Part shown: positions 13,928-49,164 of the stretch, in pieces
Layout of the letters: every line of letters starts with the position of its first letter
Position numbering within the stretch: the first letter of the stretch is position 1
From: Bacteroidales bacterium
GTDB taxonomy: Bacteria > Bacteroidota > Bacteroidia > Bacteroidales > JAADJA01
Length of the DNA: 60,156 bases
Direction: 5' to 3'
Assembly: GCA_020438135.1 (NCBI GenBank)
Contig: JAGQVF010000059.1
Location: forward strand, 4,216-64,371
The notes under the pieces: generated by a model
Told to the model about the DNA's origin: nothing
What the model saw: only the letters and a program-made list of their open reading frames with translations
Database searches by the model: none
Position numbers and translations under genes: made by a program

Positions 13928-15397
13928 TTAAGGATTTGTACTTGAATTTTCTGAAATGGTTTTCATTTTTATCCGATTTTTTAACTGATCTTCCATTTTT
14001 TCACTCATAAATAAAAATGCCATACTCATATAGATGATCAACCCGGTTGGCATTTGTCCTAATATTCCATTTCCGTAAGAAGCTGCCATGATGCCGAATA
14101 TGCCGCATACCAGTGCAATCATCCTGTTTCTCAGCCATTTGTTTTTGATTTTGAATAAGATCACCCAGGATGAGCGCAGGATAATAAAAAAGAGAATCCC
14201 CAGGTGCAAGGCAAGTCCTATGATTCCCTGCTCTGCCCAAATCATCACATACCAACTATCGGTAGGTGTATTAGCCAGAAAGGTATTGGGTGAAAACCGT
14301 TGACCCCAGTTACCGGATGAACCGATGCCTCCGCCCAAAGGTTTCGAGGCCATGTAGGATTTTAGTTTTCGCTGGTTTTCAAGTCTCACCTGCAGTGAAG
14401 GATTATCCTTGTCGAAAGCTGTCCTTAAGCGGGCTATATCATAATTTCCCTGCCCTATATGGGTGTGAAAAATGAAGATGTAAAAAGCCATGCCGGCAAT
14501 ACTTCCGATAGCGATCAGCCGGATATTTTTACTCAGGATCAGGTATAACATAAACCCGCCTAGAGGTACAGCAATAGCACCTCTGGTTCCTGATATCAGC
14601 ATGCCATAAAAAAAAATGGCTGCAGCAAGCCCATACACAATACGGCTTATATTTTTAGTTGTAGTTAGTGCCAGAACGGTGAAAACCACACCTGCATGTC
14701 CCATGGCGGCTCCAAATTGCCCTGCATCACTAAAAAATGAGAATACCCTTAGTTTTCCAAACAAAACATGTGTCAGTGAACCGCCGCCATCAAGCCATGC
14801 TTGTTCCCATGGATCCGGACCGATAAATTTTTGCATCATTCCTTTCATCACACCAAGCAATGCAAAAAACATCCACAAATGGAAAAATTTACTGAGTTTT
14901 TCCGGGGTGTCGAGAAACATTAAAACCAAAGGAATGGTTAGCAACATATGCAAGGCAACTCCCCGCATGGCGTAAAACCATGCTACCCGGCTAACCGCCT
15001 CGGGGTTTACCAACTGGAACAGTGCGTATGAATACCACAAAGCTGCAAGTAACATCAGCGGATTTCGTGCTTTTTTGTAAATATCTTTATCATGAAAGTA
15101 TTTAAAGAAAACTGCGAGATGAATCAGAACAAGCATCGAATCGATAATCAAACCCAATGAACCAGGTAAATAGCGGGTGAGGCCCAGAACTATATAGTTG
15201 ATTCCGAAAAGTACCCATATGCCCCGCTCAGGATTTTTAAAAAGGGCAAAAAGAAGCAATAAGCCAACCGGTATAGCGATTCCCATCAAAGCAATGAGAA
15301 GGCCATGCAAAGCAATCAACCATGCAAAGGCTATAATTAGAAGCAAAAGGAACGGAATTATAATGATCTTTTTATTTTGCAGGCTCATTTCGAACAT
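13928..15397 (-). CDS. O-antigen ligase/polymerase family (Wzy-like) polytopic membrane protein
   Basis: At least 10 TM helices and the Wzy_C-like signature LISGTRGAIAVPLGGFMLY. Located next to the flippase gene. Confidence 0.75.
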   Translation of the reverse strand: MFEMSLQNKKIIIIPFLLLLIIAFAWLIALHGLLIALMGIAIPVGLLLLFALFKNPERGIWVLFGINYIVLGLTRYLPGSLGLIIDSMLVLIHLAVFFKYFHDKDIYKKARNPLMLLAALWYSYALFQLVNPEAVSRVAWFYAMRGVALHMLLTIPLVLMFLDTPEKLSKFFHLWMFFALLGVMKGMMQKFIGPDPWEQAWLDGGGSLTHVLFGKLRVFSFFSDAGQFGAAMGHAGVVFTVLALTTTKNISRIVYGLAAAIFFYGMLISGTRGAIAVPLGGFMLYLILSKNIRLIAIGSIAGMAFYIFIFHTHIGQGNYDIARLRTAFDKDNPSLQVRLENQRKLKSYMASKPLGGGIGSSGNWGQRFSPNTFLANTPTDSWYVMIWAEQGIIGLALHLGILFFIILRSSWVILFKIKNKWLRNRMIALVCGIFGIMAASYGNGILGQMPTGLIIYMSMAFLFMSEKMEDQLKNRIKMKTISENSSTNP

Positions 15398-15407
15398 GAT
15401 GGATCCT

Positions 15408-16748
15408 TTATTGAAGTTTTGACCTGACTGATAAGGCCAGCCTCCGGTAAAAAATAAAGCCTTCTGTGAATATATGAATGGGATTCAGATTCAATAGTCT
15501 GTTCAGGAATATCCAGCCGTAAATCATTCCTGTGATCGTAAAAACAACAGAAACGGCCGCTACCATCACCAGTGATTGAAAAATGAATACCGCCAAAAGA
15601 TTTCCGATAAGGTTCAAACCCAGCATGATGTATACTTTCAGTGCATTTTTGTCGGGCATTTCAGCTGAATCGAGTGCCACTCCTGTAAATCTGTCGAACG
15701 GAAGGATCAGCCCGTACAAGAGGATCATCATTAAAATGGCTGTCATGAGCGGCATATCGGCCAGGTAATCTTCACCAGCCAGAAATAAAAGAATATGTTG
15801 CGAAAAAATAACTGCTGCTGCAATAACAGGCAGAAACAGCATGCTAACAGCGCCGGTATAGGTCATCAGGGTATTTTTGAAACCTTCGATATTTTGAGTT
15901 AGAAAACTTTTCGACATTTTAGGGCTTGCGGTTGCCAGAAAAGCATTTAAGGGGATCTGGATCAAATCAACTACCTTAAAGGGTATGGAGTAAATAGCAA
16001 CCCCGGTTGCTCCCAAAATTGGCGATAAGCCGATGATCAACGTATCGGAACTGCGCAACAGACTGCTGCCGGTGCTCGTTAGTAAGGTGTATTTTCCGTA
16101 ATTGATGATCTTTTTTATGGTGACCTTGTTGCTCACTTTCAGATACGACCATCCATTCCATTTTAAAATTACGGAAATGATACTTGCCGGGATGTTCGAC
16201 AAAATAAAAAGGATGATCACCCTTTCCACCCCAAATTGCCAACGGAGATTTAACAGAACCAGAATAAAAAACGGAATATTGATTAGAATCCGGGTCCAGA
16301 GTATACGATCGAATCGCTGAATTGCATTTTGATTTGCGGTTGCATTGTTCCAGAAAACAGCAATAACCGACAGCAATGGGTAGTATTTAAAGAACAGGGT
16401 ATAGATTCCCAACTTACTTTCCAACACCAGATAAAGCAGGTAAATGAAGGCCGATGAAATTCCAGCCAGCACCAGGTCGATCGCAAAGCCACTGCCCTGG
16501 AAGGTTTTCATGTGTTGGGTTGCTGTTACAGAACTGTAATGTATGATTGCCCGTTTGGTTAACCCATAACGTACCAGGTCAATAAGGGTTGATGCTGTTA
16601 CGAAGATAACCCACTCGCCAAATGCTTCTTTACCGAGAGAGCGAACCAATAGCAGAAATGTGGCCAGGTTTATTCCCGCTACAAAAACGCTGGTGGCTAG
16701 CGATTGCAGATTTTTTTCCTGTACCAGTTTACGGGTAATCGTTTTCAT
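15408..16748 (-). CDS. wzx: Wzx-type oligosaccharide flippase (MOP superfamily)
   Basis: 446 aa, about 12 TM helices, with a typical N-terminus (...NLATFLLLVRSLGKEAFGEW). The ATG shares one nt with the upstream stop (TAATG). Confidence 0.8.
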   Translation of the reverse strand: MKTITRKLVQEKNLQSLATSVFVAGINLATFLLLVRSLGKEAFGEWVIFVTASTLIDLVRYGLTKRAIIHYSSVTATQHMKTFQGSGFAIDLVLAGISSAFIYLLYLVLESKLGIYTLFFKYYPLLSVIAVFWNNATANQNAIQRFDRILWTRILINIPFFILVLLNLRWQFGVERVIILFILSNIPASIISVILKWNGWSYLKVSNKVTIKKIINYGKYTLLTSTGSSLLRSSDTLIIGLSPILGATGVAIYSIPFKVVDLIQIPLNAFLATASPKMSKSFLTQNIEGFKNTLMTYTGAVSMLFLPVIAAAVIFSQHILLFLAGEDYLADMPLMTAILMMILLYGLILPFDRFTGVALDSAEMPDKNALKVYIMLGLNLIGNLLAVFIFQSLVMVAAVSVVFTITGMIYGWIFLNRLLNLNPIHIFTEGFIFYRRLALSVRSKLQ

Positions 16749-18844
16749 TATCCCTGTTTAAAGTCAAACTTTTCAAAAAATCGTAACAATGCAATTCTTT
16801 TCACCATTTTCCTGAAACCGGAGCGTTTTTTAGGGACAGGACCGATAAAATCACCCAAATTGTCGATATCAACTTTGTTTAAAATAAAACCGATGGGTGT
16901 ATCCTTCCTGATCTTTTGTACCACGTCAAGCATTTTTTTATCTGCTGTGTCCCAACCTCTGTCAGCACGCAATACATAGCCGATGAGATCGAAATCAGTA
17001 TAAAACTGTTCCGGTAAAATATTCCCTATCAATGGTGGAATTTCTTCAAATGTTACATTCCGGTTCTTTTCGTCAGCAATGACATGATTTCCCGACTCCG
17101 GCGAAATATATTTTTCGAAATTCGAAATGAGTGTTGTTTTCCCTTCTCCCGGGTAATGACTGATGATGGCTACCCGCATCGGTTTTTGGAAAGACCCCGT
17201 TCTGTATTTTAATAGATTGTTGAATATTGATTTAATTGTGGCAGATTTGAGATGATCTGGAGAAACAGCACTTTTACCTGAATTTTTTAATGCAGGGAAA
17301 TTCCCCAAACTTAAAAGACCTGTAATTTTTTCAGCTCTGTTTGAATTTTGAAGGGTAGTATCGAAGAAATGGAGCAATAAAAGAATGGCAAAAGTGCCGA
17401 TAAAGCCTGCCAGGGCTGCTGCGATGATAATGAATTTACGTTTGCTTGGTAGCGGGCTTATTGGTAGCACCGGGGGATCAACAATTTTGATATTGGATGA
17501 AAGTTCGATGTCTTGTTGTTTTAATTTTGCCAGGCTGAGGCTGTGAAGAAGTGACAGATATTCCCGTTCCACAACATCAATCTCCCGCTCAATTTTTTTC
17601 AGATTTGCACCCAACGGGGCAAAATGCTGAATCGTTTGTTCAAGTTCAAGTCTTCTTATTTTAAGGGCATTGAGTTTTGCTGCTGCCTCTTCATACGCAA
17701 TTACATTTTGCAACCAGTTGTTAATCACATCGTCCATGCGAAGACCCTCTTTGGTGTTTTCGTAGAAATGAAGTGAATCAATTGTGTTCCGCATTTTTTG
17801 TTTCAGGTCTTCAGCCCTGAATGCAAGTTCGTCAATTGTTTCGGTGGTGGTTACTGTGGAGTCGGTCTGCTGAAAGCGCTGCAAGGCAATTTTTTCATTC
17901 AAAAGATTAAGTTCCGATCTCATCTTAATGATGTTACTTCCCTGCAACTTTAGCTTAACACGGGCTCCCATACTTTCTTCCAGGTTGCTGATAACAGATT
18001 CGGCGGCTGCAAAATCAAGCATTACTGTTTGTCGCTCCAGTTCAAATTTTTCTTTTTCAGAAGCGATGTGTTTGGTTTGCTCATAATAATTGATGATCTT
18101 GTTATCCATGTTGAAATTGAGCAGCTTGCCTTCGGCATTTTGTAACTTATCGTGTGCAATGGCCAACTGTCCTTCGAAATATTGTACCACCTGATCGGTT
18201 TGGTTTTCTTTTAGTTTCGAGTAGCTGTCGATAAATGTGTGCACGAGCAGATTCAACACCTGGTAACATACTGCCGGATCGTCGGAGTCGTAAGTCAGTT
18301 CAATCATGTCGCTGTTGGCAATTCGCTTTGCTTTTACCTGAGAAATGGCCTTGTAACTGTAATGTCTGTGGTTTAGATTGATAAGTTTGTATACATGGTT
18401 CGATTCATCCTTGTTTTTATAGGCGAGCAGATTGTTATAGGTTTTTTCAAGCGAGTTTTTATCTACCAGTTTGAAAATTTCGGGAGGGGTTATTTTTTTT
18501 ACCTCCATCAGGGAGTTTTGAGTTATTACAGGAAGCATTGGTTCATCCTGCATGAGATGCAGGGCATACAGTTTTAGAGCAGTTTCTTCAATGGTGCTGC
18601 GGGCTGTAATCAGGTTGATCAGGTTATCGAATGCATTGTTGATAGCGAAATAATTAAAGGAGGCATTTTGTTGCGATTCGATGGAGTACCCTGAGGCAAT
18701 GCCGGTGTAAACCTTTGTTTTGGATGAATAGGTTTTTGGACTATCCGAGGTAAGCAAAAAAACAAAAAACGCAAGCACTACCGGTATGCCAAAAAGTAGT
18801 GCCAGATTTTTTCGCAATATTTTCAGAAACTCCAATATATTCAT
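16748..18844 (-). CDS. Polysaccharide co-polymerase (Wzz/GumC-like) with a degenerate C-terminal P-loop domain
   Basis: TM1 near the N-terminus, a long coiled-coil periplasmic region, TM2 (IIIAAALAGFIGTFAILLLL), then about 190 aa with a Walker A-like YPGEGKTT. No D(T/S)PP Walker B and no Tyr-rich tail. Confidence 0.8.
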   Translation of the reverse strand: MNILEFLKILRKNLALLFGIPVVLAFFVFLLTSDSPKTYSSKTKVYTGIASGYSIESQQNASFNYFAINNAFDNLINLITARSTIEETALKLYALHLMQDEPMLPVITQNSLMEVKKITPPEIFKLVDKNSLEKTYNNLLAYKNKDESNHVYKLINLNHRHYSYKAISQVKAKRIANSDMIELTYDSDDPAVCYQVLNLLVHTFIDSYSKLKENQTDQVVQYFEGQLAIAHDKLQNAEGKLLNFNMDNKIINYYEQTKHIASEKEKFELERQTVMLDFAAAESVISNLEESMGARVKLKLQGSNIIKMRSELNLLNEKIALQRFQQTDSTVTTTETIDELAFRAEDLKQKMRNTIDSLHFYENTKEGLRMDDVINNWLQNVIAYEEAAAKLNALKIRRLELEQTIQHFAPLGANLKKIEREIDVVEREYLSLLHSLSLAKLKQQDIELSSNIKIVDPPVLPISPLPSKRKFIIIAAALAGFIGTFAILLLLHFFDTTLQNSNRAEKITGLLSLGNFPALKNSGKSAVSPDHLKSATIKSIFNNLLKYRTGSFQKPMRVAIISHYPGEGKTTLISNFEKYISPESGNHVIADEKNRNVTFEEIPPLIGNILPEQFYTDFDLIGYVLRADRGWDTADKKMLDVVQKIRKDTPIGFILNKVDIDNLGDFIGPVPKKRSGFRKMVKRIALLRFFEKFDFKQG

Positions 18845-19599
18845 AACTTCTTGTATTCTAACTGTATGCCTGTAATTAAACTCAGTTTAGCCAGTGATTC
18901 CAGAAATTCCCCATGAGCTATTTCGAACTCAATCTGTGCTTTGTAGAGATTTCTTTCGGTAGATGAATAAGCTGCAAAAGGGATTTTGGAATCGATGAAA
19001 TCTTTTTCAGCTTTTTCTACTTCCAATTCTGACGATTCCATTTGTTTCTCCCTGATCAGCATCACCCTATAATCACTCAGCGATTTAAAATACAACTCGA
19101 TTACATAAGATGAAATTTGTTCTTTTGCCTGTTCCATCTCCTGCACTGCCTTGTCCACGTTGAGCGTAGCAATTTTGATGTTGTTCCTCCGGTTGATAAA
19201 TGCGCTGAGCGGAATTCGTGCAGCGATCCCGGCGCTGTATCGCATCTGTTTGCTGTTGGTAAGCAGGCTGTAGTCGTAATCGTACGAAAACCGGTTCAGC
19301 CATAACTGATCGAATTGGCCATATCCTGCGTCGCCGGTAATGTTAATGTATTCGAACCAATCTTTTTGTTGTTGTTTAAGTTCTTCCTCTTTTAGTTGTG
19401 TTTCGTAGAGATAATAGGAAAACGATCCTGAATGGCCGATGGCTGCATGGATCAGACTATCAAGAGGAGGGAGGTTTAATTCTTCATGAGGATCAGAAAA
19501 AAGTAAAGTATCGGCGGGTATTTGCTGGCCATAACCAAAAAATATTACCATAAAAAAACACACTATGAAAAAGAATGCCGATACCTTACCTGATGTCAT
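18841..19599 (-). CDS. Half-size TolC/OEP-like outer-membrane protein (single repeat)
   Basis: Has a signal/anchor sequence. One unit of the TolC pattern is present: LPPLDSLIHAAIGHS, RYSAGIAARIPL, then long helices (AKEQISSYVIELYFKSL..., NLYKAQIEFEIAHGEFLESLAKLSLITG). It is 252 aa, against about 450 aa for canonical TolC. Confidence 0.5.
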   Translation of the reverse strand: MTSGKVSAFFFIVCFFMVIFFGYGQQIPADTLLFSDPHEELNLPPLDSLIHAAIGHSGSFSYYLYETQLKEEELKQQQKDWFEYINITGDAGYGQFDQLWLNRFSYDYDYSLLTNSKQMRYSAGIAARIPLSAFINRRNNIKIATLNVDKAVQEMEQAKEQISSYVIELYFKSLSDYRVMLIREKQMESSELEVEKAEKDFIDSKIPFAAYSSTERNLYKAQIEFEIAHGEFLESLAKLSLITGIQLEYKKL

Positions 19600-19636
19600 T
19601 TACAAAAGTTTTTTGGGTTTAAGCGATGTTGTGCCA

Positions 19637-20788
19637 TCAAACCGATTCGCTTTGAAAAACAGCCCTGAAGGTTCGCAATATGATCCTGATATCTTTCCAG
19701 AACGTGTATGTGCGGGCATATTCGTTATCGAGTTGCTTGCGTTCTTCCGGAGACATTTCGGTGCTTTTAGCCCGTTTTTCAACCTGCCATAAACCTGTTA
19801 GTCCGGCAGGGGCAATAAATCGTTCGATCCATTCATCGGTCGTTAACAGTTCAGCCTCGTAAAGCGGAATGGGTCGGTTACCAACGATCGACATATCGCC
19901 TTTCAGAACATTGATAAGTTGTGGAAGCTCATCAATACTGCTGTTCCTTATAAATCTGCCAACCTTTGTAATTCTTGGATCATCCTTGATTTTAACAAAA
20001 GAAACCTCTTTCTCCTGCTGCTTCTTTTTGATGAACAACTCTTCGTCAACTTTACCCTCATCGTCAAACAGCTCATTTCTTCCATCGTGGATTGAAAAAT
20101 CAGGATCAAACTTCAATTCGTTTGTATCTGTGTTGACGGCGTATTGATTTAGTTTCTTTAAGTCTTTGATCTTCGCATCAGCATTCATATCCATCGACCT
20201 GAATTTGTAGAAGTCAAAAGTTTTAAAACCTGTTCCGATCCTTTTTGAGGCATAAAACACAGGGCCTCTGGATTCAAGTCTGATGAGAATGGCCACGATA
20301 AGAAAAACCGGCGATAGCAGCAAAAGTGCCGTACCTGCCAAAGCCACATCAAATGCACGTTTTATAAAGGGCATTTGATACTCGAAATATTCGGGTGATG
20401 GAGCCTTTGAAATTTTTGTATTCCTGAATTCTGCGATCAATTGAACACGCGCAGCAAGTTTAACCGGATCGGCCGGAATTGTGTACACATCGTCTACTCC
20501 CTGCGTTAACAATTTTGAATAAACCGAAGTGTTTTGCTTTTCCGTTAGCAGAATGATGATCGTCCGAATGGGGTCGATGCTTTTGTTTAGCCAATCGAGA
20601 TAAGCTGCAATGTTTTCTCCACAGGAAGCCGATTCCAGGACTATTAAGCCGGGTTTATTTTGCCTGAAATAGTCGCTGTTTTCCGTTGCATCCGGAAACA
20701 TGATAAAGTCCAGCGATGGCAATGCTTTAGCAAGCCTGCTATAAAAGTCTTTGTCGTTTCCGATATACGTACCTTTAGTCGGGTTCAT
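19637..20788 (-). CDS. Initiating phosphoglycosyl transferase (Bac_transf family) fused to an N-terminal degenerate receiver (REC-like) domain
   Basis: The C-terminal half carries FDVALAGTALLLLSPVFL (re-entrant helix), KFRSM, DDPRITKVGRFIRNSSIDELPQLINVLKGDMSIVGNRP. The N-terminal ~120 aa have a CheY-like beta-alpha pattern, but with E52 at the acceptor site, T82 kept, and I104 in place of the conserved Lys. Confidence 0.85.
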   Translation of the reverse strand: MNPTKGTYIGNDKDFYSRLAKALPSLDFIMFPDATENSDYFRQNKPGLIVLESASCGENIAAYLDWLNKSIDPIRTIIILLTEKQNTSVYSKLLTQGVDDVYTIPADPVKLAARVQLIAEFRNTKISKAPSPEYFEYQMPFIKRAFDVALAGTALLLLSPVFLIVAILIRLESRGPVFYASKRIGTGFKTFDFYKFRSMDMNADAKIKDLKKLNQYAVNTDTNELKFDPDFSIHDGRNELFDDEGKVDEELFIKKKQQEKEVSFVKIKDDPRITKVGRFIRNSSIDELPQLINVLKGDMSIVGNRPIPLYEAELLTTDEWIERFIAPAGLTGLWQVEKRAKSTEMSPEERKQLDNEYARTYTFWKDIRIILRTFRAVFQSESV

Positions 20789-20799
20789 GATAAATGGTT

Positions 20800-21174
20800 T
20801 TAATTTTTTATTAGCCTGGAAAGCCGGACCTTCAATTCTGCTGGATTAAATGGTTTAACCACATAATCATCTGCTCCCATGTCGAGCATTTTAATGCGTT
20901 CATCAGAGTTGTGGATGCTTGATAGCATGATAATCGGGATTTTGTTGAACATGCCGGATGATTTTACCAGGCTCAGAAATTTGCGTCCATCCAATTCAGG
21001 CATCTGAATGTCGGAAATGATCCCATCCGGAATATTCCCCGACTGAAGCCATGTGAAAGCCGTGTGACCGTTTTCGAAAGTAACTACCTCGTAGTCTTTT
21101 GAGAGGAACATATTCAGCAGGTTCCTGATCTCGTATTTGTCGTCGATTACTATTACCTTTTTTTTCATTTTCAT
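20800..21174 (-). CDS. Stand-alone CheY-like response regulator receiver
   Basis: 124 aa with all canonical residues: VIVIDD, ISDIQMPELDG (acceptor Asp), IIMLSS, DDYVVKPF. Confidence 0.9.
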   Translation of the reverse strand: MKMKKKVIVIDDKYEIRNLLNMFLSKDYEVVTFENGHTAFTWLQSGNIPDGIISDIQMPELDGRKFLSLVKSSGMFNKIPIIMLSSIHNSDERIKMLDMGADDYVVKPFNPAELKVRLSRLIKN

Positions 21175-21189
21175 TTTGATTTTCCCGGG

Positions 21190-23256: not shown

Positions 23257-23342
23257 TCTTCCTGGGTTTAAAAGAATTACCGTTTTCTACGGATTTTGTA
23301 GCTTTTTTACGTGTGTTACTAATTAATGTTACCTTGCCATAT

Positions 23343-24515
23343 TCACGATTGGTGAGCCGCAGCCGGTTCCTGTTTTGTTGTTCCTTCTTTAAAATTCTTA
23401 AAAGTAAATACCGGAAATGTTATAGTGAAGGTGCTCCCTTTTCCCATTTCACTTTTAAGCTCTATGTTTCCCTGATTGCTTCTAACAAAATCGAGGACCA
23501 GCATAAATCCCAATCCACTTCCTTTTTCCTTATCTGTACCGTAGGTTGTCCATTGGCCATTTCCATATAACAGCATTTTCTGATTTTCATGGCTGATGCC
23601 GATTCCATTGTCTTCAACGGAAATTTTAACATGGTTTTCGACCTCTGTAACAAGAATTGAAATACGCCCCCCACTCGGGGTGAATTTAATAGCGTTTGAC
23701 GTGAGATTTCTGATCACTGTCCCGATCATATTTCTGTCAGCATACAGCTCGATATCGGGGTCTGCTTCAATCAGTAAAGTGATATTCTTTTTGTCGGCTG
23801 CTGGTTTTAGTAAGCCGGCAATACGTTCAATTATTTCCAGAACGTTGAAATGGGTCCGTTCAATTTTTATACCCGAAAGTTTATTTTTTGACCAGAGCAA
23901 AAGGTTTTCGAGCAGGTCGAATGTTTCGTTGGTGGTGTTCAACAGCATTTCGACCAGTTCGTTAAAGTTCGCCCTGTCAATAAAGTTGCCCTGCAGCGCA
24001 GCCAGTACACTTTTAATATTGGCCAGCGGCGACCGAATATCGTGAGCAATGATTGCATACAATTTATCTCTGGATTTAATGGTCTCCTTGAGTTCTTCAG
24101 TTTGAATCGCCAGCAACCGTTTTTGCCGGAGGATTTCAAGCTGCGTGTCAACCCTGGCAAATAACTCTCTCTTTTTAAAGGGTTTCGTTATATAATCGAT
24201 GCCTCCTACTTCAAAACCCCTGACTATGTTATTGGTTTCTGTAAGCGCAGTAATAAAAATAACAGGAATGTCACGCGTGTTTTCATTTGATTTGAGAACC
24301 GAACAAACCTCGAATCCATCCATTCCGGGCATCATGATGTCGAGAAGAATCAGATCGATTTTTACAGATTCTACGGTTTTGAGTGCATCGGGGCCACTGA
24401 ATGCGACTGTCAGATCAAAGTTCTTCTCCCTCAATGCCAGACCCAACACCTTGATATTATCCTTGTTGTCGTCAACAATCAGTATTGAGTATTTCTCTTG
24501 TTCCATATTTTCCAC
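23343..24515 (-). CDS. Receiver-histidine kinase hybrid (REC-HisKA-HATPase_c)
   Basis: REC: ILIVDDNKDN, DLILLDIMMPGMDG, ITKPF. H-box: YAIIAHDIRSPLANI. N/G boxes: RNLTSNAIKFT, DNGIGI, GSGLGF. No TM helix. Confidence 0.9.
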   Translation of the reverse strand: MENMEQEKYSILIVDDNKDNIKVLGLALREKNFDLTVAFSGPDALKTVESVKIDLILLDIMMPGMDGFEVCSVLKSNENTRDIPVIFITALTETNNIVRGFEVGGIDYITKPFKKRELFARVDTQLEILRQKRLLAIQTEELKETIKSRDKLYAIIAHDIRSPLANIKSVLAALQGNFIDRANFNELVEMLLNTTNETFDLLENLLLWSKNKLSGIKIERTHFNVLEIIERIAGLLKPAADKKNITLLIEADPDIELYADRNMIGTVIRNLTSNAIKFTPSGGRISILVTEVENHVKISVEDNGIGISHENQKMLLYGNGQWTTYGTDKEKGSGLGFMLVLDFVRSNQGNIELKSEMGKGSTFTITFPVFTFKNFKEGTTKQEPAAAHQS

Positions 24516-24518
24516 GTT

Positions 24519-27500
24519 TTAAACAGTTACCTTCTTTTTCCCCTTTTTTAAGCCTTCCTTGTAGATGTTTTCAATTTTTTGAATCACCTCCGGGAATTTT
24601 GCAAGGCACTCTTCCAGGTGTTCAAAGTCAAAAACATCAAGGTGGCTTTTCAATTCATCTGCATATTGTATTAAGATTTTTAGCTCTGTTTTTTCGGCTT
24701 CATTTTTAAGTTTTGAAATAAAGGATTCAATTCTGTTGATTACCAACTTATCTTTTATGGCTTCCCATTCAGGCAAAAACAGATTTTTTAGTTTTTCGAT
24801 CAATGGCGGAATATTTTGTCTGATCTTTTCCGGGATTGACTCTGACCGGCCATCGTTTATTTTTTTGTTTTTTATGATCCTGTGAGGTGCATATTTCCTG
24901 AGTGTCGAACACAATTCAACATGATGAACAGGTTTGAAGATAACGTCATTGAACAGTCCTGAATCATTAATTTTTTTATTGTCGTCGTCAAATGCCGATG
25001 CAGTAAATGCGATGATCGGTATTTGATGAAGATGGTCCGTCTGCCGGATTTTGGTTGCCAGTTCGAATCCATCCATGCCCGGCATTCTTAAATCTAGAAA
25101 AACAATATCAGGTTTTGAGTTGGCAATAACTTTCAGGGCTATCTCACCATTTGTGGCCTCTAAAATGGTTAGTCCGGGGGCCTGAACCAATTCCCGGATC
25201 GTATCAATATTGGTTTTAATATCATCAACTACCAGAACGGTAACATTTTCATAAACAATCTTGCTGTAAATGTCTATTACTTCTACCTTTTGTTTAAAGT
25301 CTTCAGGGATATAGGTTGACTTTTTAACATCATTCAAAGTGATCGTAAATTTTGAACCTTTCCCAACTAAACTTTCCACCCCGATGGTTCCATTCATTTG
25401 TTCGAGTAGTTTGTTAACGATGGCCAGTCCCAGGCCGGTTCCTCCGTATTGTTTGTTGGTTTTCCTGTCCTGTTGATGAAAAGCATCGAAAATATGCTCC
25501 AGGTATTCTTCGGAAATGCCTATTCCGCTGTCTTCAAAGATTATATGAAGATCACCCAGGGTACCTTTATCAATAAATTTGGCAGAAACACTCACAAACC
25601 CCTTATCTGTAAATTTAACTGCGTTTCCGCCCAGGTTCACAAGGATTTGGCGCAGATGTGTTTCGTCAAGTATGAGGTATTGGGGCACTGAATCATCAAT
25701 TTGAATATTGAATGCCAGATCTTTTTTAGCGGTTTTGTCTCTGCAGATTTCCCGTGTTTCGTTTAGCAGATACCTGAGGTTTACGGGTTCAAACGAAAGC
25801 TGCATTTTACCTGCCTCAATTTTTGACATGTCGAGGATGTCGTTGATCAGATCGAGCAATAATTTGCCACTCGACATGATGGTATTCACCATTTTTTTAT
25901 GTTGTTCGTTTTCGGTGCGGTGAAACAGCGATTCGCTAAATCCGAGAATGGCATTTAAAGGTGTCCTGATTTCATGGCTCATATTGGCCAGAAATTCACT
26001 CTTAGCTTTATTGGCCTGTTCTGCTTTCTCTTTTTCTTCATTGAGCGATCGAATATATTGCTTTCGCTCACTTACATCCCTCACACTGGCTACAACTTCA
26101 CTGTTGCTCATGGATGCCATCCGGGCTTCATAATCATACAGTTGCTTATTCACCTTAAATTTAAATTCAAACAGGTAAGATCCTTCGCTGAGGCATTTTT
26201 GAATAGAATGAATAAACACATCAGCCGTTTTTTGATCGAAGAGGTTTTCTATTCTTTCAATCTTTCCTTCGAGGTTGAATGGAATTTGTTTACTCTTTTC
26301 GCTGATTGAGTGGTTTAAAACATGGCCGGAAGCATTAAGATATAACAGAAGGTCGGGTATTGATTCGATTATGGCCTTATTTTTTGCCTCACTTTCACGA
26401 AGTGATCGGTGACTGTGTTCTCTTTCAAAAGCATTTGAAACGATTCCACTCACTGTCCGGATCAGTTCAATTTCGGAGGTTGACCATTTCCGGTTTTCAT
26501 TACATTCGTCAAAACCAATAAAACCAAATCTTTTACCAGCACTGATCAGTGGAAACACAATGATCGACTTGATCTCCTGCGGTTCGAGGATGTCGACAAT
26601 GTCAGACGGAAATTCATGAATGTTTTCAGAATAGATGCGGCCATCCCTGTCGAGAAATTCTTTCCAGGATGGTATTAGATCGTATCCAATCTCCTGCAGA
26701 AGATCGATTTGTGGTGAAATCCCTTTATTGCACCATTCATATGTATTGGATGTAAATTTCCCATCCGCTGAATCCTCAAATATGTACGAACGACTAACAT
26801 CTGTGTATTCTCCGATGATTCCAAGGGCCTCATTCATTATTGTTGTAAATTCACCGGGTACATTAAACTTTAATGAAATCTCAGAGATAATGGCCTGGTG
26901 TTTTAACGACTTCTCAAGCGCTACCTGCTGATTGTGCAGTTCCTCCTCTGTAAACTTAATTTCGGAGATATCGATATTGGTACCGACAACCCTGACCGGT
27001 TTATTGTTTTCATCATATTCAGTGACCTTTCCGGTCCCCATAATCCATTTATAGGTGCCGCTTTTAGCTTTGATCCTGTACTTTGAGCGGAATATGTCTG
27101 ATTTGCCTGCCAGGTGATCATTGAGGTTTCGTTTCATTTCATCAAGATCAGAGGGATGAATCAGCTTGTGCCATGCATCAAGGGTTGGTGTTATTTCGTT
27201 TTGGTTGTATCCCAGGATTTTTTTCAGTCCGTCGCTCCGGTAAATAAACCCCGAAGGAATATCAAAATCCCACAATACCGAATTACTGCTCATCAGGGCC
27301 ATTTCAAGTCGTTCTTTCCCATGCCTCAGCTGTTCTTCGTGAATAATACGTTCCGAAATATCAACCATTACACCCCTCACCCCGGCCGGTCTGTTATTTC
27401 TGATGATAACACTTGTGTAAACAAGCACAGGGATCGTATTCCCGTTTTTTTTAACGGCGATGTATTCTCTGGGTGATGAGGTGCCTTTTTCAACCGATTC

Positions 27501-28184
27501 CCTGAATTTGAGGGAAGCAATTTTTCTTTGATCCGGATGGAAAAGATTAAACGCACTGAACCCCTTATCAAGGTCCTTTTGCTCATAACCCAATTTTCGG
27601 AGCGAATATTTATTGGCATAGGTAATTGTTCCATGCAAGTCGGTTTCGCAGATCATTTCAGGCAAAAGTTCAATCAGGTCGCGGTACCGCTTTTCGCTTT
27701 CAATCAGCCTGTTTTTATTGATACATGATAAACCGGCATTTGCCAGCTTGTGATTGAGTATCTTCAGTTTGTGCGCCAAAAATTCCAGTCTGTCAGGATT
27801 GTTGTCAAACAACACCAAAAATCCAAATCCCGGCAAGTCCATAACGGAATATGTTGAACTATTCGCCAGTATACCTTTTTTGGGAAGTTGATCTCTGAAT
27901 TTTTTCAGGTTTGCCGGTGTTGATTCTCCCGGAACCTCCTGCAGCTGATCAAGTTGGCCTGAATCAAGGGGCTTTCCTTTATATAAGCTAAATATGGGAT
28001 GAATAACAATTTTTTTTGTTGATGACAATTCAGCCCTAAAAACTACACCTCCATCAAGTTTTAATTTGTTGATGTAAGATTGCAAACTGTTTTCGACCAT
28101 TTTGGCCAAATCATCATGCACATCAATTTCTACTGCTATTTCAAGAAATGTCTTTAATTCATCCTGTCTGATTTCATGGGGCAT
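24519..28184 (-). CDS. Large cytoplasmic hybrid sensor histidine kinase (multiple PAS, GAF, HisKA, HATPase_c, REC, Hpt-like tail)
   Basis: 1221 aa. PAS-like repeats (residues ~170-430 and ~610-700) and a GAF-like block (...IIVFPLISAGKRFGFIGFDE). H-box FLANMSHEIRTPLNAILGF, HATPase (NLGGNAVKFT, DSGIGI, GGTGLGLAIV), REC (VLVVDD, IVFLDLRMPGMDG, IFKPV). No TM helix seen. Confidence 0.92.
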   Translation of the reverse strand: MPHEIRQDELKTFLEIAVEIDVHDDLAKMVENSLQSYINKLKLDGGVVFRAELSSTKKIVIHPIFSLYKGKPLDSGQLDQLQEVPGESTPANLKKFRDQLPKKGILANSSTYSVMDLPGFGFLVLFDNNPDRLEFLAHKLKILNHKLANAGLSCINKNRLIESEKRYRDLIELLPEMICETDLHGTITYANKYSLRKLGYEQKDLDKGFSAFNLFHPDQRKIASLKFRESVEKGTSSPREYIAVKKNGNTIPVLVYTSVIIRNNRPAGVRGVMVDISERIIHEEQLRHGKERLEMALMSSNSVLWDFDIPSGFIYRSDGLKKILGYNQNEITPTLDAWHKLIHPSDLDEMKRNLNDHLAGKSDIFRSKYRIKAKSGTYKWIMGTGKVTEYDENNKPVRVVGTNIDISEIKFTEEELHNQQVALEKSLKHQAIISEISLKFNVPGEFTTIMNEALGIIGEYTDVSRSYIFEDSADGKFTSNTYEWCNKGISPQIDLLQEIGYDLIPSWKEFLDRDGRIYSENIHEFPSDIVDILEPQEIKSIIVFPLISAGKRFGFIGFDECNENRKWSTSEIELIRTVSGIVSNAFEREHSHRSLRESEAKNKAIIESIPDLLLYLNASGHVLNHSISEKSKQIPFNLEGKIERIENLFDQKTADVFIHSIQKCLSEGSYLFEFKFKVNKQLYDYEARMASMSNSEVVASVRDVSERKQYIRSLNEEKEKAEQANKAKSEFLANMSHEIRTPLNAILGFSESLFHRTENEQHKKMVNTIMSSGKLLLDLINDILDMSKIEAGKMQLSFEPVNLRYLLNETREICRDKTAKKDLAFNIQIDDSVPQYLILDETHLRQILVNLGGNAVKFTDKGFVSVSAKFIDKGTLGDLHIIFEDSGIGISEEYLEHIFDAFHQQDRKTNKQYGGTGLGLAIVNKLLEQMNGTIGVESLVGKGSKFTITLNDVKKSTYIPEDFKQKVEVIDIYSKIVYENVTVLVVDDIKTNIDTIRELVQAPGLTILEATNGEIALKVIANSKPDIVFLDLRMPGMDGFELATKIRQTDHLHQIPIIAFTASAFDDDNKKINDSGLFNDVIFKPVHHVELCSTLRKYAPHRIIKNKKINDGRSESIPEKIRQNIPPLIEKLKNLFLPEWEAIKDKLVINRIESFISKLKNEAEKTELKILIQYADELKSHLDVFDFEHLEECLAKFPEVIQKIENIYKEGLKKGKKKVTV

Positions 28185-28538
28185 AATAATCCTGTTTTAC
28201 AAATTGATAACTCCCTGTTTTCGTTGCTCTTATTGTCTTGTCATGACGAAAAAGCCGCTTCGTGCAAAAGTGCAGAACCGAATCGATACCGGAGTTAAGC
28301 CTAATTTTAATTTTGAATTTGTGAACAGGAGAGGTGTGGCCCGATAAGAGATCATATCCGAAAACGATCAATTCCGGATGTAATGCGACCAGGTGCTTAT
28401 ACCTGAATATATAGGTATTAGCTGTGTTCATATTCGTTCTTTATCGGGTTGTTAAAGTCGTATTGTACGGCGATTTATGGAATTGGTTTAGCCGATCACA
28501 AATAATATTTCAGTAAAATGGCAGGCTGTAGTGAGGAG

Positions 28539-48405: not shown

Positions 48406-49164
48406 TTAGTTTCTAAATAGCAAATACAGGGTTACAGCAGTGGTTATGGTGGTTAAAAATACAGGTACATTTACCAGGCTCAGGTTTCTGAATTTTTGTC
48501 TGATGGGTCTCACAATGATCACGTCATTGGGGATGATGTAATAAAATTCAGACGAAACAATATTTTTATCAGTCAGGTCCAGGTAATGATAGTTGATTTT
48601 ATTATTTGCCTCTCTTACCAGGATGATGGTTTCTTTGTTTCCATATTCCGTAAAACCTCCGGCATACGCAATTGCCTGGAAAACTGTAACCTGGTCTCTG
48701 TAGAATGCATGTTCGCCCGGCCTTCTGACCTCACCCAGCACCGTTACGGCATTATTAACAAACTTTACGGAAATGGAAATATTGGGCAAATATTCACTTA
48801 CCAGTTTCTCTATCGTTTCCTGAGCCTCATTCAGGGTCATATCCTTTACAAATATTTTTCCTACAAATGGAAAATCAACATAGCCCGATTGGTCAATTGT
48901 ATAGCTTAACAGGTTAATGTTCGATTGGGATGCAGCACCACTCCCCATCGAAAAAATATTGGCTGTTTTCTCGTCAATACTGCTTACCTTAATGTATATG
49001 TTGTCGAATGGTTGTATGGTTTTCTCAGGACGTACATTTACATATTCATTTTTTTCATCTTTGGGTTTTTGATCATGGGTATAGATCAGTTTTTTACGTG
49101 GAATGCATGAGGATAGCACCGCAATTATCAGAATAACCTCTGTCAGTATGAAAACCCTTTTCAA
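48406..49164 (-). CDS. wza: Polysaccharide export outer-membrane lipoprotein (Wza-like: Poly_export + SLBB)
   Basis: Lipobox AVLSSC, SGYVDFPFVGKIFVKDMTLNEAQETI (Poly_export), and VTVLGEVRRPG. The start as read from the sequence is TTG. Confidence 0.85.
   Translation of the reverse strand: MKRVFILTEVILIIAVLSSCIPRKKLIYTHDQKPKDEKNEYVNVRPEKTIQPFDNIYIKVSSIDEKTANIFSMGSGAASQSNINLLSYTIDQSGYVDFPFVGKIFVKDMTLNEAQETIEKLVSEYLPNISISVKFVNNAVTVLGEVRRPGEHAFYRDQVTVFQAIAYAGGFTEYGNKETIILVREANNKINYHYLDLTDKNIVSSEFYYIIPNDVIIVRPIRQKFRNLSLVNVPVFLTTITTAVTLYLLFRN

What the first reader, a model, noticed from the sequence alone, without database searches (positions are those of the whole stretch)
19637..20788. Initiating phosphoglycosyl transferase with a pseudo-receiver (Glu at the acceptor site, Lys lost) and an insertion in the catalytic domain
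Residues 1-120 follow the CheY beta-alpha pattern, with these differences:
- The beta1 acidic pair reads N11-D12.
- The phospho-acceptor position is E52 (LIVLESA; codon at 20633-20635).
- T82 is kept.
- The conserved beta5 Lys is I104 (DDVYTIP).

Asp-to-Glu substitutions at this site behave as phosphomimics in some receivers, for example NtrC D54E. This could therefore be a locked or partner-binding domain rather than a phosphorylatable one.

The catalytic half is also unusual. About 65 residues separate KFRSM from DDPRIT, against about 25 in the canonical WbaP-type enzyme encoded at 49272-50678 in this same window. In addition, the conserved VGPRP reads VGNRP.
Basis: partly seen in the sequence, partly recalled or inferred. 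Interest (0 to 1): 0.7.

Follow-up and report, generated by a model that had tools for sequence, protein, structure and literature searches.

The report
Pseudo-receiver sugar transferase with partner regulator
This gene encodes the enzyme that starts building an exported polysaccharide, fused to a signalling domain that can no longer be phosphorylated; it always sits next to a small intact signalling protein that probably docks onto that dead domain to switch the enzyme, and this pairing is conserved across the phylum Bacteroidota.

Summary
ORF 19637-20788 (-) encodes a 383-aa small monotopic phosphoglycosyl transferase (PGT). Its first ~125 residues fold as a receiver domain but lack the phosphotransfer residues.

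- Profile-profile alignment and an AlphaFold model place E52 at the acceptor Asp, T82 at the Thr and I104 at the Lys.
- The 69-residue KFRSM-DDPRIT spacing and VGNRP are real.

None of this is peculiar to this gene. In 233 relatives the acceptor is Glu in 73% and Asp in 17%, the first acidic position is Gly in 88%, and VGNRP is invariant.

What I add:
- In 80 of 80 Bacteroidota genomes inspected, a canonical single-domain response regulator gene lies upstream on the same strand, within 175 bp in 77. Here it is 20800-21174.
- Natural fusions exist, both regulator + pseudo-receiver + PGT and regulator + PGT.
- The pseudo-receiver keeps the Asp/Arg pair of the OmpR/PhoB-type alpha4-beta5-alpha5 dimer face.

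Most likely the phosphorylated regulator docks on the pseudo-receiver and gates the first step of the downstream polysaccharide locus. The docking itself is inferred, not shown.

I rate this a new variant of known kinds, with moderate-to-high interest.

The parts
19637..20788 (-). Gene for the pseudo-receiver-fused small monotopic phosphoglycosyl transferase (383 aa)
   Evidence: ORF and translation. Pfam Bac_transf over residues 143-379, E = 1.8e-58. Solved WbaP and PglC structures are the best sequence and fold matches.
20414..20788 (-). Pseudo-receiver domain, residues 1-125, (beta-alpha)5 fold
   Evidence: AlphaFold2 pLDDT 84-94 with strands and helices in receiver order. Foldseek matches to OmpR/PhoB-type receivers. 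hhalign probability 99.8% against the neighbouring regulator family.
20756..20761 (-). G10-N11, the positions of the metal-binding acidic pair (DD), both non-acidic
   Evidence: Profile alignments. Gly at the first position in 206 of 233 relatives.
20633..20635 (-). E52 (GAA) at the phospho-acceptor position, at the end of strand beta3
   Evidence: In the family this position is Glu in 169, Asp in 39 and other residues in 25 of 233.
20474..20479 (-). I104-P105 at the conserved Lys-Pro position after beta5 (Lys lost)
   Evidence: Lys at this position in only 54 of 233 relatives.
20447..20491 (-). D100 to R114: the retained Asp (K-4) and Arg (K+10) of the alpha4-beta5-alpha5 face
   Evidence: Asp/Glu in 229 of 233 and Arg/Lys in 226 of 233 relatives; these are the most conserved polar positions of the domain. 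They are equivalent to PhoB D101 and R115, whose charge-swap mutants compensate each other (PMC4511772).
20270..20368 (-). Predicted membrane helix, residues 141-173, with the Ser159-Pro160 motif
   Evidence: Helix 141-173 in the model. P160 invariant and S159 nearly invariant. Aligns to the re-entrant helix region of WbaP.
20003..20149 (-). Family-specific insertion in the catalytic domain, about residues 214-262: loop, beta-hairpin, helix. This is a cysteine-free version.
   Evidence: 69 versus 26 residues between KFRSM and DDPRIT. The insertion is present in nearly all relatives. Model pLDDT is 53-78, with a hairpin at 240-247 and a helix at 249-262.
19928..19933 (-). D286-E287, at the position of the Asp-Glu catalytic dyad (DELPQ)
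   Evidence: Invariant in 70 relatives. The same motif occurs in the window's WbaP.
19871..19885 (-). VGNRP, with Asn in place of the first Pro of the usual VGPRP
   Evidence: Asn in 233 of 233 relatives. The window's WbaP has VGPRP, and the solved WbaP chain reads vgPRPi where the query reads vgNRPi.
20800..21174 (-). Canonical single-domain response regulator (124 aa), the proposed partner. Its stop lies 11 bp upstream of the PGT start.
   Evidence: Pfam Response_reg E = 2e-24. D11-D12, D55, S85 and K107 are present. An equivalent gene lies upstream on the same strand in 80 of 80 loci, and 79-81 of the 81 sequences compared (80 loci plus the window's own regulator) are canonical at each key position.
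18841..19599 (-). Half-size TolC-like outer-membrane protein (OEP), the next gene of the module
   Evidence: Pfam OEP E = 1.7e-17. A homologue lies within about 170 bp downstream of the PGT in 50 of 80 loci, and in 51 of 80 anywhere in the flank.
16748..18844 (-). Polysaccharide co-polymerase-like protein (GNVR motif), overlapping the previous gene by 4 bp
   Evidence: Pfam GNVR hit, E = 7.1e-06 and 26.3 bits, just below Pfam's curated cut-off of 27.7. A homologue lies downstream in 64 of 80 loci.
13928..16748 (-). A 446-aa membrane protein with a weak MatE/flippase-like hit, and a Wzy_C polymerase-like protein
   Evidence: Homologues occur in 36 and 52 of 80 loci.
23343..28184 (-). Two co-oriented sensor kinases: a PAS-GAF-HisKA-HATPase-receiver hybrid (24519-28184) and a receiver-HisKA-HATPase protein (23343-24515). 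They are candidate phosphodonors.
   Evidence: Pfam. A kinase-like ORF lies within the flanks in only 22 of 80 related loci, so this linkage is not conserved.

Best explanation
The gene encodes a small (PglC-type, single membrane helix) monotopic phosphoglycosyl transferase. It starts synthesis of the polysaccharide made by the downstream Wzx/Wzy-type locus.

Its N-terminal domain descends from a receiver domain but has lost the phosphotransfer chemistry: no acidic pair, Glu for the acceptor Asp, Ile for the Lys. It keeps the Asp/Arg pair used by OmpR/PhoB-type receivers to dimerise through the alpha4-beta5-alpha5 face.

Proposed mechanism:
1. The signal enters through the canonical 124-aa response regulator encoded 11 bp upstream. 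It would be phosphorylated on D55 by a sensor kinase, possibly the two encoded just upstream.
2. The phosphorylated regulator docks on the pseudo-receiver as a receiver:pseudo-receiver heterodimer.
3. Docking changes the activity of the attached enzyme, most likely switching it on. Polysaccharide synthesis is thereby gated after translation, at its first committed step.
4. E52 is a structural stand-in and is not phosphorylated.

Shown here: the identity of both domains, the loss of the catalytic receiver residues, the family-wide nature of these traits, the universal gene pairing, the natural fusions and the retained interface residues.

Inferred: physical docking, the interface used, and the direction of regulation.
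For: Domain identity.

Family-wide degeneracy, in 233 unique relatives:
- Acceptor is Glu in 169, Asp in 39.
- First acidic position is Gly in 206.
- Lys is kept in only 54.
- Only 3 are fully canonical, and those 3 are a different architecture.

Partner gene:
- A 119-150-aa receiver-only gene lies upstream on the same strand in 80 of 80 genomes spanning the Bacteroidota orders. It is within 175 bp in 77 of them.
- Across 81 sequences (80 loci plus the window's own regulator) it carries [D/E]D in 81, the acceptor Asp in 81, Ser/Thr in 80 and Lys in 80.

Natural fusions:
- P0127, P0128 and P0130 carry a canonical receiver, a Glu-type pseudo-receiver and the PGT in one chain. P0127 is encoded on 5 contigs; the 3 places shown come from three different samples (two NCBI assemblies and one SRA run), and none has a separate regulator gene upstream.
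- P0136 (Sediminitomix flava), P0140 and P0143 carry the regulator-type canonical receiver fused directly to the PGT. In the two whose contexts I checked (P0136 and P0140) there is no separate regulator gene, and P0136 has the same OEP/Wzz/Wzy_C genes downstream.

Interface residues:
- The pseudo-receiver keeps Asp/Glu at K-4 in 229 of 233 and Arg/Lys at K+10 in 226 of 233.
- The partner keeps Asp in 78 of 81, Arg/Lys in 78 of 81 and Glu at K+6 in 79 of 81.
- In PhoB these positions (D101, R115) show compensating charge-swap mutations (PMC4511772).
- The nearest folds are OmpR/PhoB-type receivers.

Precedents:
- Phosphorylated single-domain regulator EpsW activates the PGT EpsZ by direct contact (PMC12802240).
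- In PleD, a phosphorylated receiver acts through an adjacent pseudo-receiver, and receiver:pseudo-receiver heterodimers have been proposed as a general mechanism (PMC12632262).

Catalytic residues (DE dyad, KFRSM, Arg-Pro of NRP, Ser-Pro helix) are invariant, so the enzyme is probably active.
Against: - No direct test of binding was possible.
- The variant with the regulator fused directly to the catalytic domain shows that the pseudo-receiver is dispensable in some lineages. The regulator's real contact could therefore be the catalytic domain.
- Small monotopic PGTs are reported to work as monomers (discussion in PMC12802240), so the dimer-promoting logic of EpsW/EpsZ need not apply.
- The Asp/Arg pair can also stabilise beta5/alpha5 within one chain (RegX3). 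Its conservation is therefore not proof of an interface.
- A distance-matrix co-evolution test did not separate regulator/pseudo-receiver from control pairs.
- Kinase genes are nearby in only 22 of 80 loci.
Confidence: 0.55

Rival explanations
1. The regulator acts directly on the catalytic domain, as modelled for EpsW on EpsZ. The pseudo-receiver is only an intramolecular structural or autoinhibitory module and does not touch the regulator.
For: - In P0136, P0140 and P0143 the canonical regulator-type receiver is fused directly to the catalytic domain with no pseudo-receiver; P0136 has the same downstream module.
- In the EpsZ-EpsW model the regulator contacts the catalytic domain (PMC12802240).
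Against: - The pseudo-receiver is retained in about 230 of 233 relatives, with its alpha4-beta5-alpha5 Asp/Arg pair conserved better than anything else in the domain.
- In the triple fusions the regulator is joined to the pseudo-receiver by a linker of only about 8 residues, as in receiver/pseudo-receiver tandems.
Confidence: 0.2
2. Phosphomimic lock. E52 holds the N-domain in a permanently active-like state, for example a constitutive homodimer. The enzyme is then always on, and the neighbouring regulator serves another target or acts as a phosphate sink.
For: - Glu is the majority residue at the acceptor site, 73% of 233 relatives.
- Asp-to-Glu changes partly activate some regulators, and Glu is the commonest substitution in aspartate-less receivers (PMC4395418; PMC12632262).
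- Fifteen solved pseudo-receiver structures are dimers without phosphorylation.
Against: - The residues a phosphomimic Glu would engage are not conserved: Thr/Ser in 94 of 233 and Lys in 54 of 233.
- 25 of 233 relatives have Gln, Phe, His, Tyr, Ala and other residues at the site.
- This reading does not explain the universal adjacency or the fusions with a fully phosphorylatable regulator.
- Asp-to-Glu alone is often insufficient for activation, and in ChxR changing the Glu had no effect.
Confidence: 0.12
3. The N-domain is a decaying remnant with no regulatory role. Only the catalytic half matters.
For: - The phosphotransfer residues are lost.
- This protein's clade has also lost the LPG-x-NG loop motif and no longer matches Pfam Response_reg.
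- A search of 1.84 billion representative proteins with the N-domain alone found only 6 hits at E <= 0.001.
Against: - The domain is kept at full length across all orders of the phylum.
- It has a confident fold (pLDDT 84-94) and specific conserved positions: G10, D100, R114 and an aromatic at 117.
- A useless 125-residue domain would not persist this widely.
Confidence: 0.05
4. The N-domain is still modified covalently, for example phosphorylated on the nearby D12 or on E52, or methylated on E52.
For: - D12 lies one residue after the acidic-pair position, and that column is Asp or Asn in 176 of 233 relatives.
- Other modifications of aspartate-less receivers have been suggested in the literature.
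Against: - There are no metal-binding acidic residues and no Lys.
- No known bacterial signalling uses Glu phosphorylation.
- The D12 column is Asn nearly as often as Asp.
Confidence: 0.03

Closest known systems
EpsW / EpsZ of Myxococcus xanthus (phosphorylated single-domain response regulator that activates the initiating PGT; PMC12802240)
   Same: - A stand-alone, phosphorylatable receiver-only protein is tied to the priming PGT of a Wzx/Wzy-type exopolysaccharide pathway.
- Control is post-translational, at the first committed step.
   Different: - EpsZ is a large WbaP-type PGT with a transmembrane bundle and a cytoplasmic DUF. The regulator is modelled on that DUF and on the catalytic domain, and is thought to promote dimerisation.
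- Here the enzyme is a small PglC-type PGT with its own pseudo-receiver domain as the likely docking site.
- The two genes are adjacent in 80 of 80 genomes inspected and are sometimes fused.
- The lineage is Bacteroidota, not Myxococcota.
Receiver-domain fusions of small monotopic PGTs, catalogued by sequence-similarity networks (O'Toole, Imperiali & Allen 2021, as cited in PMC12802240), and the Response_reg~Bac_transf row of the aspartate-less receiver census (Maule et al. 2015, Table S2)
   Same: - Same domain architecture.
- The 2015 table lists both Response_reg~Bac_transf proteins then known (Chlorobi; Bacteroidetes) as aspartate-less.
   Different: - Those works list the architecture. 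As far as I could read or search, they do not describe the obligatory neighbouring canonical regulator, the retained dimer-face residues, the triple fusions or the catalytic-domain insertion.
- The 2021 paper was not available to me, so this point is not fully checked.
PleD-type receiver / pseudo-receiver tandem (Caulobacter crescentus PleD)
   Same: A phosphorylatable receiver works through an adjacent non-phosphorylatable receiver-like adaptor to control an enzyme domain (summary in PMC12632262). The fused relatives P0127 and P0128 have exactly this order of domains.
   Different: - In the window the two receiver-like units are separate polypeptides.
- The output is a membrane PGT, not a diguanylate cyclase.
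- There is no evidence that dimerisation of the output is required.
Glu-type pseudo-receivers (plant pseudo-response regulators, fungal Rim15p, Chlamydia ChxR)
   Same: Glu replaces the acceptor Asp, and Asn sits at the second acidic position. These are the commonest substitutions in pseudo-receivers.
   Different: - The outputs and lineages are unrelated.
- Those proteins are not paired with a dedicated canonical receiver gene.
PglC (Campylobacter) and WbaP (Salmonella), structurally solved monotopic PGTs
   Same: - Same catalytic fold and motifs: membrane helix with Ser-Pro, KFRxM, DE dyad, Arg-Pro.
- Foldseek E about 1e-10; sequence E = 1e-24 to 1e-35.
   Different: - An insertion of about 43 residues between KFRSM and DDPRIT.
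- Asn replaces the first Pro of PRP.
- An N-terminal pseudo-receiver replaces either nothing (PglC) or the transmembrane bundle plus DUF (WbaP).

Membership tests
Monotopic phosphoglycosyl transferase (Pfam Bac_transf, PF02397) | Significant full-length match to the family profile | tested here: met
   197.5 bits, E = 1.8e-58, profile positions 1-179 of 179, against a cut-off of 27.
Monotopic phosphoglycosyl transferase (Pfam Bac_transf, PF02397) | Single N-terminal membrane helix with a Ser-Pro break (re-entrant helix) | tested here: inconclusive
   Helix 141-173 is predicted, and S159-P160 is conserved (P160 invariant). Re-entrant rather than spanning topology cannot be decided from these outputs.
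Monotopic phosphoglycosyl transferase (Pfam Bac_transf, PF02397) | Asp-Glu catalytic dyad and the basic residues of KFRxM | tested here: met
   D286-E287, K195 and R197 are present. R197, D286 and E287 are invariant and K195 is nearly invariant in 70 relatives. The catalytic role of the dyad is from established knowledge of PglC.
Monotopic phosphoglycosyl transferase (Pfam Bac_transf, PF02397) | Pro-Arg-Pro motif | tested here: not met
   The motif reads Asn-Arg-Pro. Asn is found in 233 of 233 relatives. Arg and the second Pro are kept, so this is a family-specific variant rather than a loss.
Large (WbaP-type) monotopic PGT | N-terminal transmembrane bundle plus a cytoplasmic CoA_binding_3-like DUF before the catalytic domain | tested here: not met
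   No such domains are present in the 383-aa protein. The window's true WbaP (49272-50678) has CoA_binding_3 and 468 aa.
True (phosphorylatable) receiver domain, PF00072 | Acidic pair after beta1 | tested here: not met
   G10-N11.
True (phosphorylatable) receiver domain, PF00072 | Acceptor Asp at the end of beta3 | tested here: not met
   E52.
True (phosphorylatable) receiver domain, PF00072 | Thr/Ser at the end of beta4 and Lys after beta5 | tested here: not met
   T82 is present but the Lys position is I104.
True (phosphorylatable) receiver domain, PF00072 | Match to the Pfam profile above its cut-off | tested here: not met
   No hit at E <= 1 for this protein. Most relatives at 45-55% identity do carry a precomputed PF00072 hit.
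Pseudo-receiver / aspartate-less receiver | Receiver fold and detectable homology to receivers, but without the phosphorylatable Asp | tested here: met
   hhalign 99.8%. Foldseek matches to receivers at TM about 0.8. E52 sits at the acceptor position.
EpsW/EpsZ-type regulation of a PGT by a single-domain regulator | A dedicated phosphorylatable single-domain regulator co-occurs with the PGT | tested here: met
   80 of 80 loci, with canonical residues.
EpsW/EpsZ-type regulation of a PGT by a single-domain regulator | Direct, phosphorylation-enhanced binding and stimulation of enzyme activity | not testable with these tools
   Needs binding and activity assays or multimer modelling.
EpsW/EpsZ-type regulation of a PGT by a single-domain regulator | The target is a large monotopic PGT whose DUF lacks the dimerising beta-hairpin | tested here: not met
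   The target here is a small PGT with no DUF.
PleD-like receiver / pseudo-receiver tandem | Canonical receiver followed by a pseudo-receiver in one chain, upstream of an enzyme domain | tested here: not met
   In the window the two are separate genes. The feature is met only in the fused relatives P0127, P0128 and P0130.

The most novel reading that the evidence does not exclude
[quoted passage not shown] This would be a natural, genetically tractable case of receiver-to-pseudo-receiver signalling to a membrane enzyme. It would also be a general post-translational on/off switch for exopolysaccharide synthesis in environmental, gut (Bacteroides, Prevotella, Alistipes) and marine Bacteroidota. 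The family-specific catalytic-domain insertion, a four-cysteine probable metal-binding element in half or more of the family, could be a second regulatory input.
Probability: 0.45. Interest if true: 0.75.

Novelty: new variant of a known kind. Interest (0 to 1): 0.6.

Why it matters
Two open questions meet here.

**How bacterial pseudo-receivers are controlled.** A 2025 review calls their activation mechanisms a mystery. It proposes, without a worked example, that pseudo-receivers may form phosphorylation-dependent heterodimers with true receivers (PMC12632262). This module offers many natural pairs, natural fusions and an enzymatic read-out with which to test that idea.

**How cells ration undecaprenyl phosphate among polysaccharide pathways.** Control of the priming PGT by a regulator was shown only recently, in one myxobacterium (PMC12802240). 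A conserved, differently built version across Bacteroidota, including gut genera, would make post-translational gating of the first step a widespread principle. It would also give a handle on capsule and biofilm polysaccharide production in these bacteria.

For this particular gene, the practical message is that its odd residues are family traits, not lesions.

Tried and rejected
- **Pfam Response_reg on the protein:** no hit at E <= 1. Domain identity had to come from family profiles, hhalign and structure instead.
- **phmmer with the N-domain alone against 1.84 billion representative proteins:** only 6 hits at E <= 0.001. This says only that the domain is very divergent. It could not show whether the domain occurs in other architectures.
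- **Mirror-tree / partial Mantel test for regulator/pseudo-receiver co-evolution:** partial r = 0.41, but the control pairs gave the same or higher values (OEP versus pseudo-receiver 0.45, regulator versus catalytic domain 0.44). The test only reflects shared ancestry and I discard it.
- **Sigma-70 promoter and terminator scan of 16500-28600:** counts at or below shuffled expectation, and the promoter consensus is in any case inappropriate for Bacteroidota.
- **Literature searches for an experimental study of this module in Bacteroidota:** nothing found. O'Toole et al. 2021 is not held, so what it says about these fusions is known to me only through its citation in PMC12802240.
- **'Another flavodoxin-like family':** rejected, because the best non-PGT fold matches are all receiver domains.
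- **'A shifted alignment hides a real acceptor Asp':** rejected by three independent alignments and the model.
Full report
**1. What is at the coordinates**

ORF 19637..20788 on the minus strand is real: 383 aa with an ATG start. Its N-terminus lines up with the starts of its homologues.

Pfam gives a full-length Bac_transf match over residues 143-379 (E = 1.8e-58). It gives nothing for the first 140 residues, even at E <= 1. NCBIfam places the protein in the polyprenyl glycosylphosphotransferase families but below their full-length cut-offs. It adds only faint OmpR/MtrA receiver hits at E about 0.003.

The best solved relatives by sequence are Salmonella WbaP and Campylobacter PglC. In both, the match is split in two by an unaligned stretch of the query.

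The E52 codon is GAA at 20633-20635. KFRSM and DDPRIT are 69 residues apart, against 26 in the window's WbaP-type enzyme (49272-50678, minus strand). That enzyme reads VGPRP where this one reads VGNRP.

**2. Is the N-domain a receiver, and which residue is at the acceptor site?**

Four independent lines agree.

- *Family HMM.* An HMM built from the N-domains of 116 homologues matches E. coli CheY and the three canonical receivers of this window at E = 1e-14 to 1e-23. The family's Glu aligns with CheY D57.
- *Profile-profile comparison.* hhalign of that family against the family of neighbouring regulators gives probability 99.8% and E = 1.2e-29 over 116 columns. It pairs G10-N11 with the acidic pair, E52 with the acceptor Asp, T82 with the Ser/Thr and I104-P105 with Lys-Pro.
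- *Structure model.* An AlphaFold2 model built with 70 homologues gives a (beta-alpha)5 domain with pLDDT 84-94. E52 is the last residue of beta3, T82 the last of beta4, and I104 follows beta5.
- *Fold search.* After PglC and WbaP, Foldseek against the PDB returns more than 40 receiver domains, mostly of the OmpR/PhoB type (BfmR, PhoP, RstA, VicR, PhoB, MtrA). TM is about 0.8 and rmsd about 2.4 A over about 120 residues.

**3. These traits belong to a family, not to this gene**

A homology search returned thousands of relatives of 380-400 aa. Most at 45-55% identity carry precomputed Response_reg + Bac_transf hits. The nearest clade (>= 50% identity) carries only Bac_transf. That clade has also lost the LPG-x-NG loop motif after the acceptor site, which explains the Pfam miss.

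A scan of one genome per species found 594 pattern-matched relatives. I inspected the best 80. They come from Bacteroidales, Marinilabiliales, Flavobacteriales, Cytophagales, Sphingobacteriales and Chitinophagales, including Bacteroides, Prevotella and Alistipes.

| Position, pooled 233 unique full-length proteins | Residues found |
|---|---|
| Acceptor | Glu 169, Asp 39, Gln 8, Phe 4, His 3, Tyr 3, others |
| First acidic position | Gly 206 |
| Lys position | Lys 54 |
| Thr position | Ser/Thr 94 |
| VG**N**RP | Asn 233 |

In the 74 full-length proteins from species-representative genomes the acceptor is Glu 42, Asp 9, Gln 7 and others 16.

The long KFRSM-DDPRIT spacing (66-100 residues) is present in nearly all relatives.

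This fits the literature:
- Glu is the commonest replacement of the acceptor Asp in aspartate-less receivers (26%; PMC4395418).
- Asn is a common replacement at the second acidic position (PMC12632262).
- The 2015 census table lists both Response_reg~Bac_transf proteins then known as aspartate-less.
- Receiver fusions of small monotopic PGTs have been catalogued (O'Toole et al. 2021, as cited in PMC12802240). I could not read that paper.

**4. The neighbourhood supplies the missing phosphorylation site**

The gene 11 bp upstream (20800-21174) encodes a 124-aa receiver-only protein with every canonical residue: D11-D12, D55, S85, K107-P108.

In all 80 related loci a 119-150-aa receiver-only gene lies upstream on the same strand. 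It is within 175 bp in 77 of them, often overlapping the PGT start. The other three have split PGT reading frames.

I compared 81 of these regulators: the 80 from the related loci plus the window's own. They carry [D/E]D in 81, the acceptor Asp in 81, Ser/Thr in 80, Lys in 80 and Pro in 81.

Downstream, the module continues:
- a half-size TolC-like OEP protein (51 of 80 loci);
- a GNVR co-polymerase-like protein (64 of 80);
- a 446-aa membrane protein with a weak MatE/flippase-like hit;
- a Wzy_C-type polymerase-like protein (52 of 80).

In the window this is followed by UDP-glucose dehydrogenase, glycosyltransferases, a methyltransferase and an acetyltransferase, down to about position 2730.

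Two sensor kinases lie upstream in the window (23343-28184). A kinase-like ORF is nearby in only 22 of 80 loci. The conserved unit is therefore regulator + pseudo-receiver-PGT, not kinase + regulator.

**5. Natural fusions**

Searching with the regulator and PGT sequences joined end to end recovered proteins that cover the whole query: P0127 (506 aa), P0128 (510 aa) and the N-terminally truncated P0130.

Their sequences read as a canonical receiver, a linker of about 8 residues, a Glu-type pseudo-receiver, then the PGT with VGNRP. P0127 is encoded on 5 contigs. The 3 places shown come from three different samples (two NCBI assemblies and one SRA run), and none has a separate regulator gene upstream.

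A second variant has the regulator-type canonical receiver fused directly to the catalytic domain, with no pseudo-receiver. It is represented by P0136 of Sediminitomix flava, P0140 and P0143. For the two whose contexts I checked (P0136 and P0140) there is no separate regulator gene. P0136 has the same OEP/Wzz/Wzy_C genes downstream.

By the usual gene-fusion argument, the regulator and the PGT act together physically.

**6. What the pseudo-receiver has kept**

Apart from core hydrophobic positions and G10, the best conserved positions are D100 (Asp/Glu in 229 of 233) and R114 (Arg/Lys in 226 of 233). Next comes an aromatic at 117.

Relative to the Lys position, D100 and R114 are K-4 and K+10. 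These correspond to PhoB D101 and R115. R115D cripples PhoB and D101R partly rescues it, which marks an inter-subunit contact of the alpha4-beta5-alpha5 dimer (PMC4511772).

The partner regulators keep the same pair (Asp 78 of 81, Arg/Lys 78 of 81) plus Glu at K+6 (79 of 81). So the domain lost its chemistry but kept a dimerisation face. This is suggestive rather than conclusive, because the pair can also form within one chain.

**7. Mechanism proposed**

1. Phosphoryl groups reach D55 of the 124-aa regulator.
2. The phosphorylated regulator docks on the pseudo-receiver through the alpha4-beta5-alpha5 faces.
3. This changes PGT activity, most likely activating it, and commits undecaprenyl phosphate to this polysaccharide.

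Precedents are EpsW~P activating EpsZ in Myxococcus (PMC12802240) and PleD, where a phosphorylated receiver acts through an adjacent pseudo-receiver.

Shown: domain identities, loss of catalytic receiver residues, universal pairing, fusions and retained interface residues. Inferred: contact, interface and the sign of regulation.

Main rival: the regulator touches the catalytic domain directly and the pseudo-receiver is only an internal module. The direct-fusion variant favours this reading.

The phosphomimic-lock idea is weaker. Thr and Lys are not conserved, 11% of relatives have non-acidic residues at the site, and the idea leaves the partner gene unexplained.

**8. The catalytic half**

The catalytic motifs are invariant: the KR-x-FD start, Ser-Pro in the membrane helix, KFRSM, the DE dyad, and the Arg-Pro of NRP. 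An active enzyme is therefore expected. Its sugar substrate cannot be told from these data.

The insertion (about residues 214-262) is modelled as a loop, a beta-hairpin (240-247) and a helix (249-262), at modest confidence (pLDDT 53-78).

In 76 of 120 close relatives, and in 39 of 80 genomes, the same element carries four cysteines in the pattern CPxC-x(8-10)-C-x(11)-C. These are invariant within the 50-sequence four-cysteine subset I aligned.

In a model of one such relative (P0016) the region is more confident (pLDDT about 80-88) and has the same hairpin-helix shape. That fits a small metal-binding element. The window's protein belongs to a cysteine-free branch. The function of this insertion, and of the invariant Asn in VGNRP, remains unexplained.

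**9. Verdict**

The protein is an ordinary member of its family, and the architecture and its aspartate-less nature are already on record. What I could not find described are:
- the universal pairing with a canonical single-domain regulator across Bacteroidota;
- the two kinds of natural fusion;
- the retained dimer-face residues;
- the cysteine-bearing insertion.

I rate this a new variant of known kinds, with interest 0.6.

Noticed in passing
window 20003-20149 (residues 214-262); relatives such as P0016 residues 242-266: The family-specific insertion carries four cysteines in the pattern CPxC-x(8-10)-C-x(11)-C. They occur in 76 of 120 close relatives and 39 of 80 genomes, and are invariant within the four-cysteine subset. 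The window's protein and its clade have none. The element is modelled as a knuckle, a beta-hairpin and a helix, and is probably metal-binding. Its function is unknown.
   Followed up: partly
L084 5001-6188 (P0136, Sediminitomix flava); L085 and L086 (P0140): In a variant architecture the canonical regulator-type receiver is fused directly to the PGT catalytic domain, with no pseudo-receiver. In the two contexts checked there is no separate regulator gene, and P0136 has the same OEP/Wzz/Wzy_C genes downstream. P0143 has the same sequence architecture, but I did not check its context.
   Followed up: partly
L081 6001-7521, L082, L083 (P0127); also P0128 and P0130: Single-chain fusions of a canonical receiver, a Glu-type pseudo-receiver and the PGT (about 506-510 aa). 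P0127 is found on contigs from independent samples. A DUF4842 gene lies just upstream, as in the window.
   Followed up: yes
window 21190-23256 (-): A 688-aa protein with DUF4114 and DUF4842 domains and a signal/lipoprotein-like N-terminus sits between the kinases and the regulator. A homologue is upstream of the module in 5 of 80 loci and in the P0127 fusion loci. Its role is unknown.
   Followed up: partly
window 18841-19599 (-): A half-size (252 aa) TolC-like OEP protein immediately follows the PGT and is conserved there in 51 of 80 loci. None of the ORFs I scanned between 2730 and 28184 has a Wza-type Poly_export domain. This protein may therefore be the outer-membrane exit of the module.
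   Followed up: partly
window 29991-50678 (-): A second, conventional Wzx/Wzy polysaccharide locus headed by a large WbaP-type PGT (49272-50678). It also has Wza (48406-49164), Wzc (45956-48394), an MBOAT acyltransferase, a Wzx-type flippase (33368-34789) and a Wzy-like protein. No regulator is attached to it. One genome region thus holds a regulated and an apparently unregulated priming enzyme.
   Followed up: partly
window 23343-28184 (-): The candidate kinases are a PAS-GAF hybrid kinase with a C-terminal receiver and a receiver-first kinase. No Hpt phosphotransfer domain was seen among the ORFs scanned, so the route of phosphoryl groups to the 124-aa regulator is unclear.
   Followed up: no
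L039 (CAYFRO010000064.1): One related locus comes from a metagenome-assembled genome labelled 'uncultured Actinomyces sp.', whereas every other carrier is Bacteroidota. This is probably a binning error.
   Followed up: no
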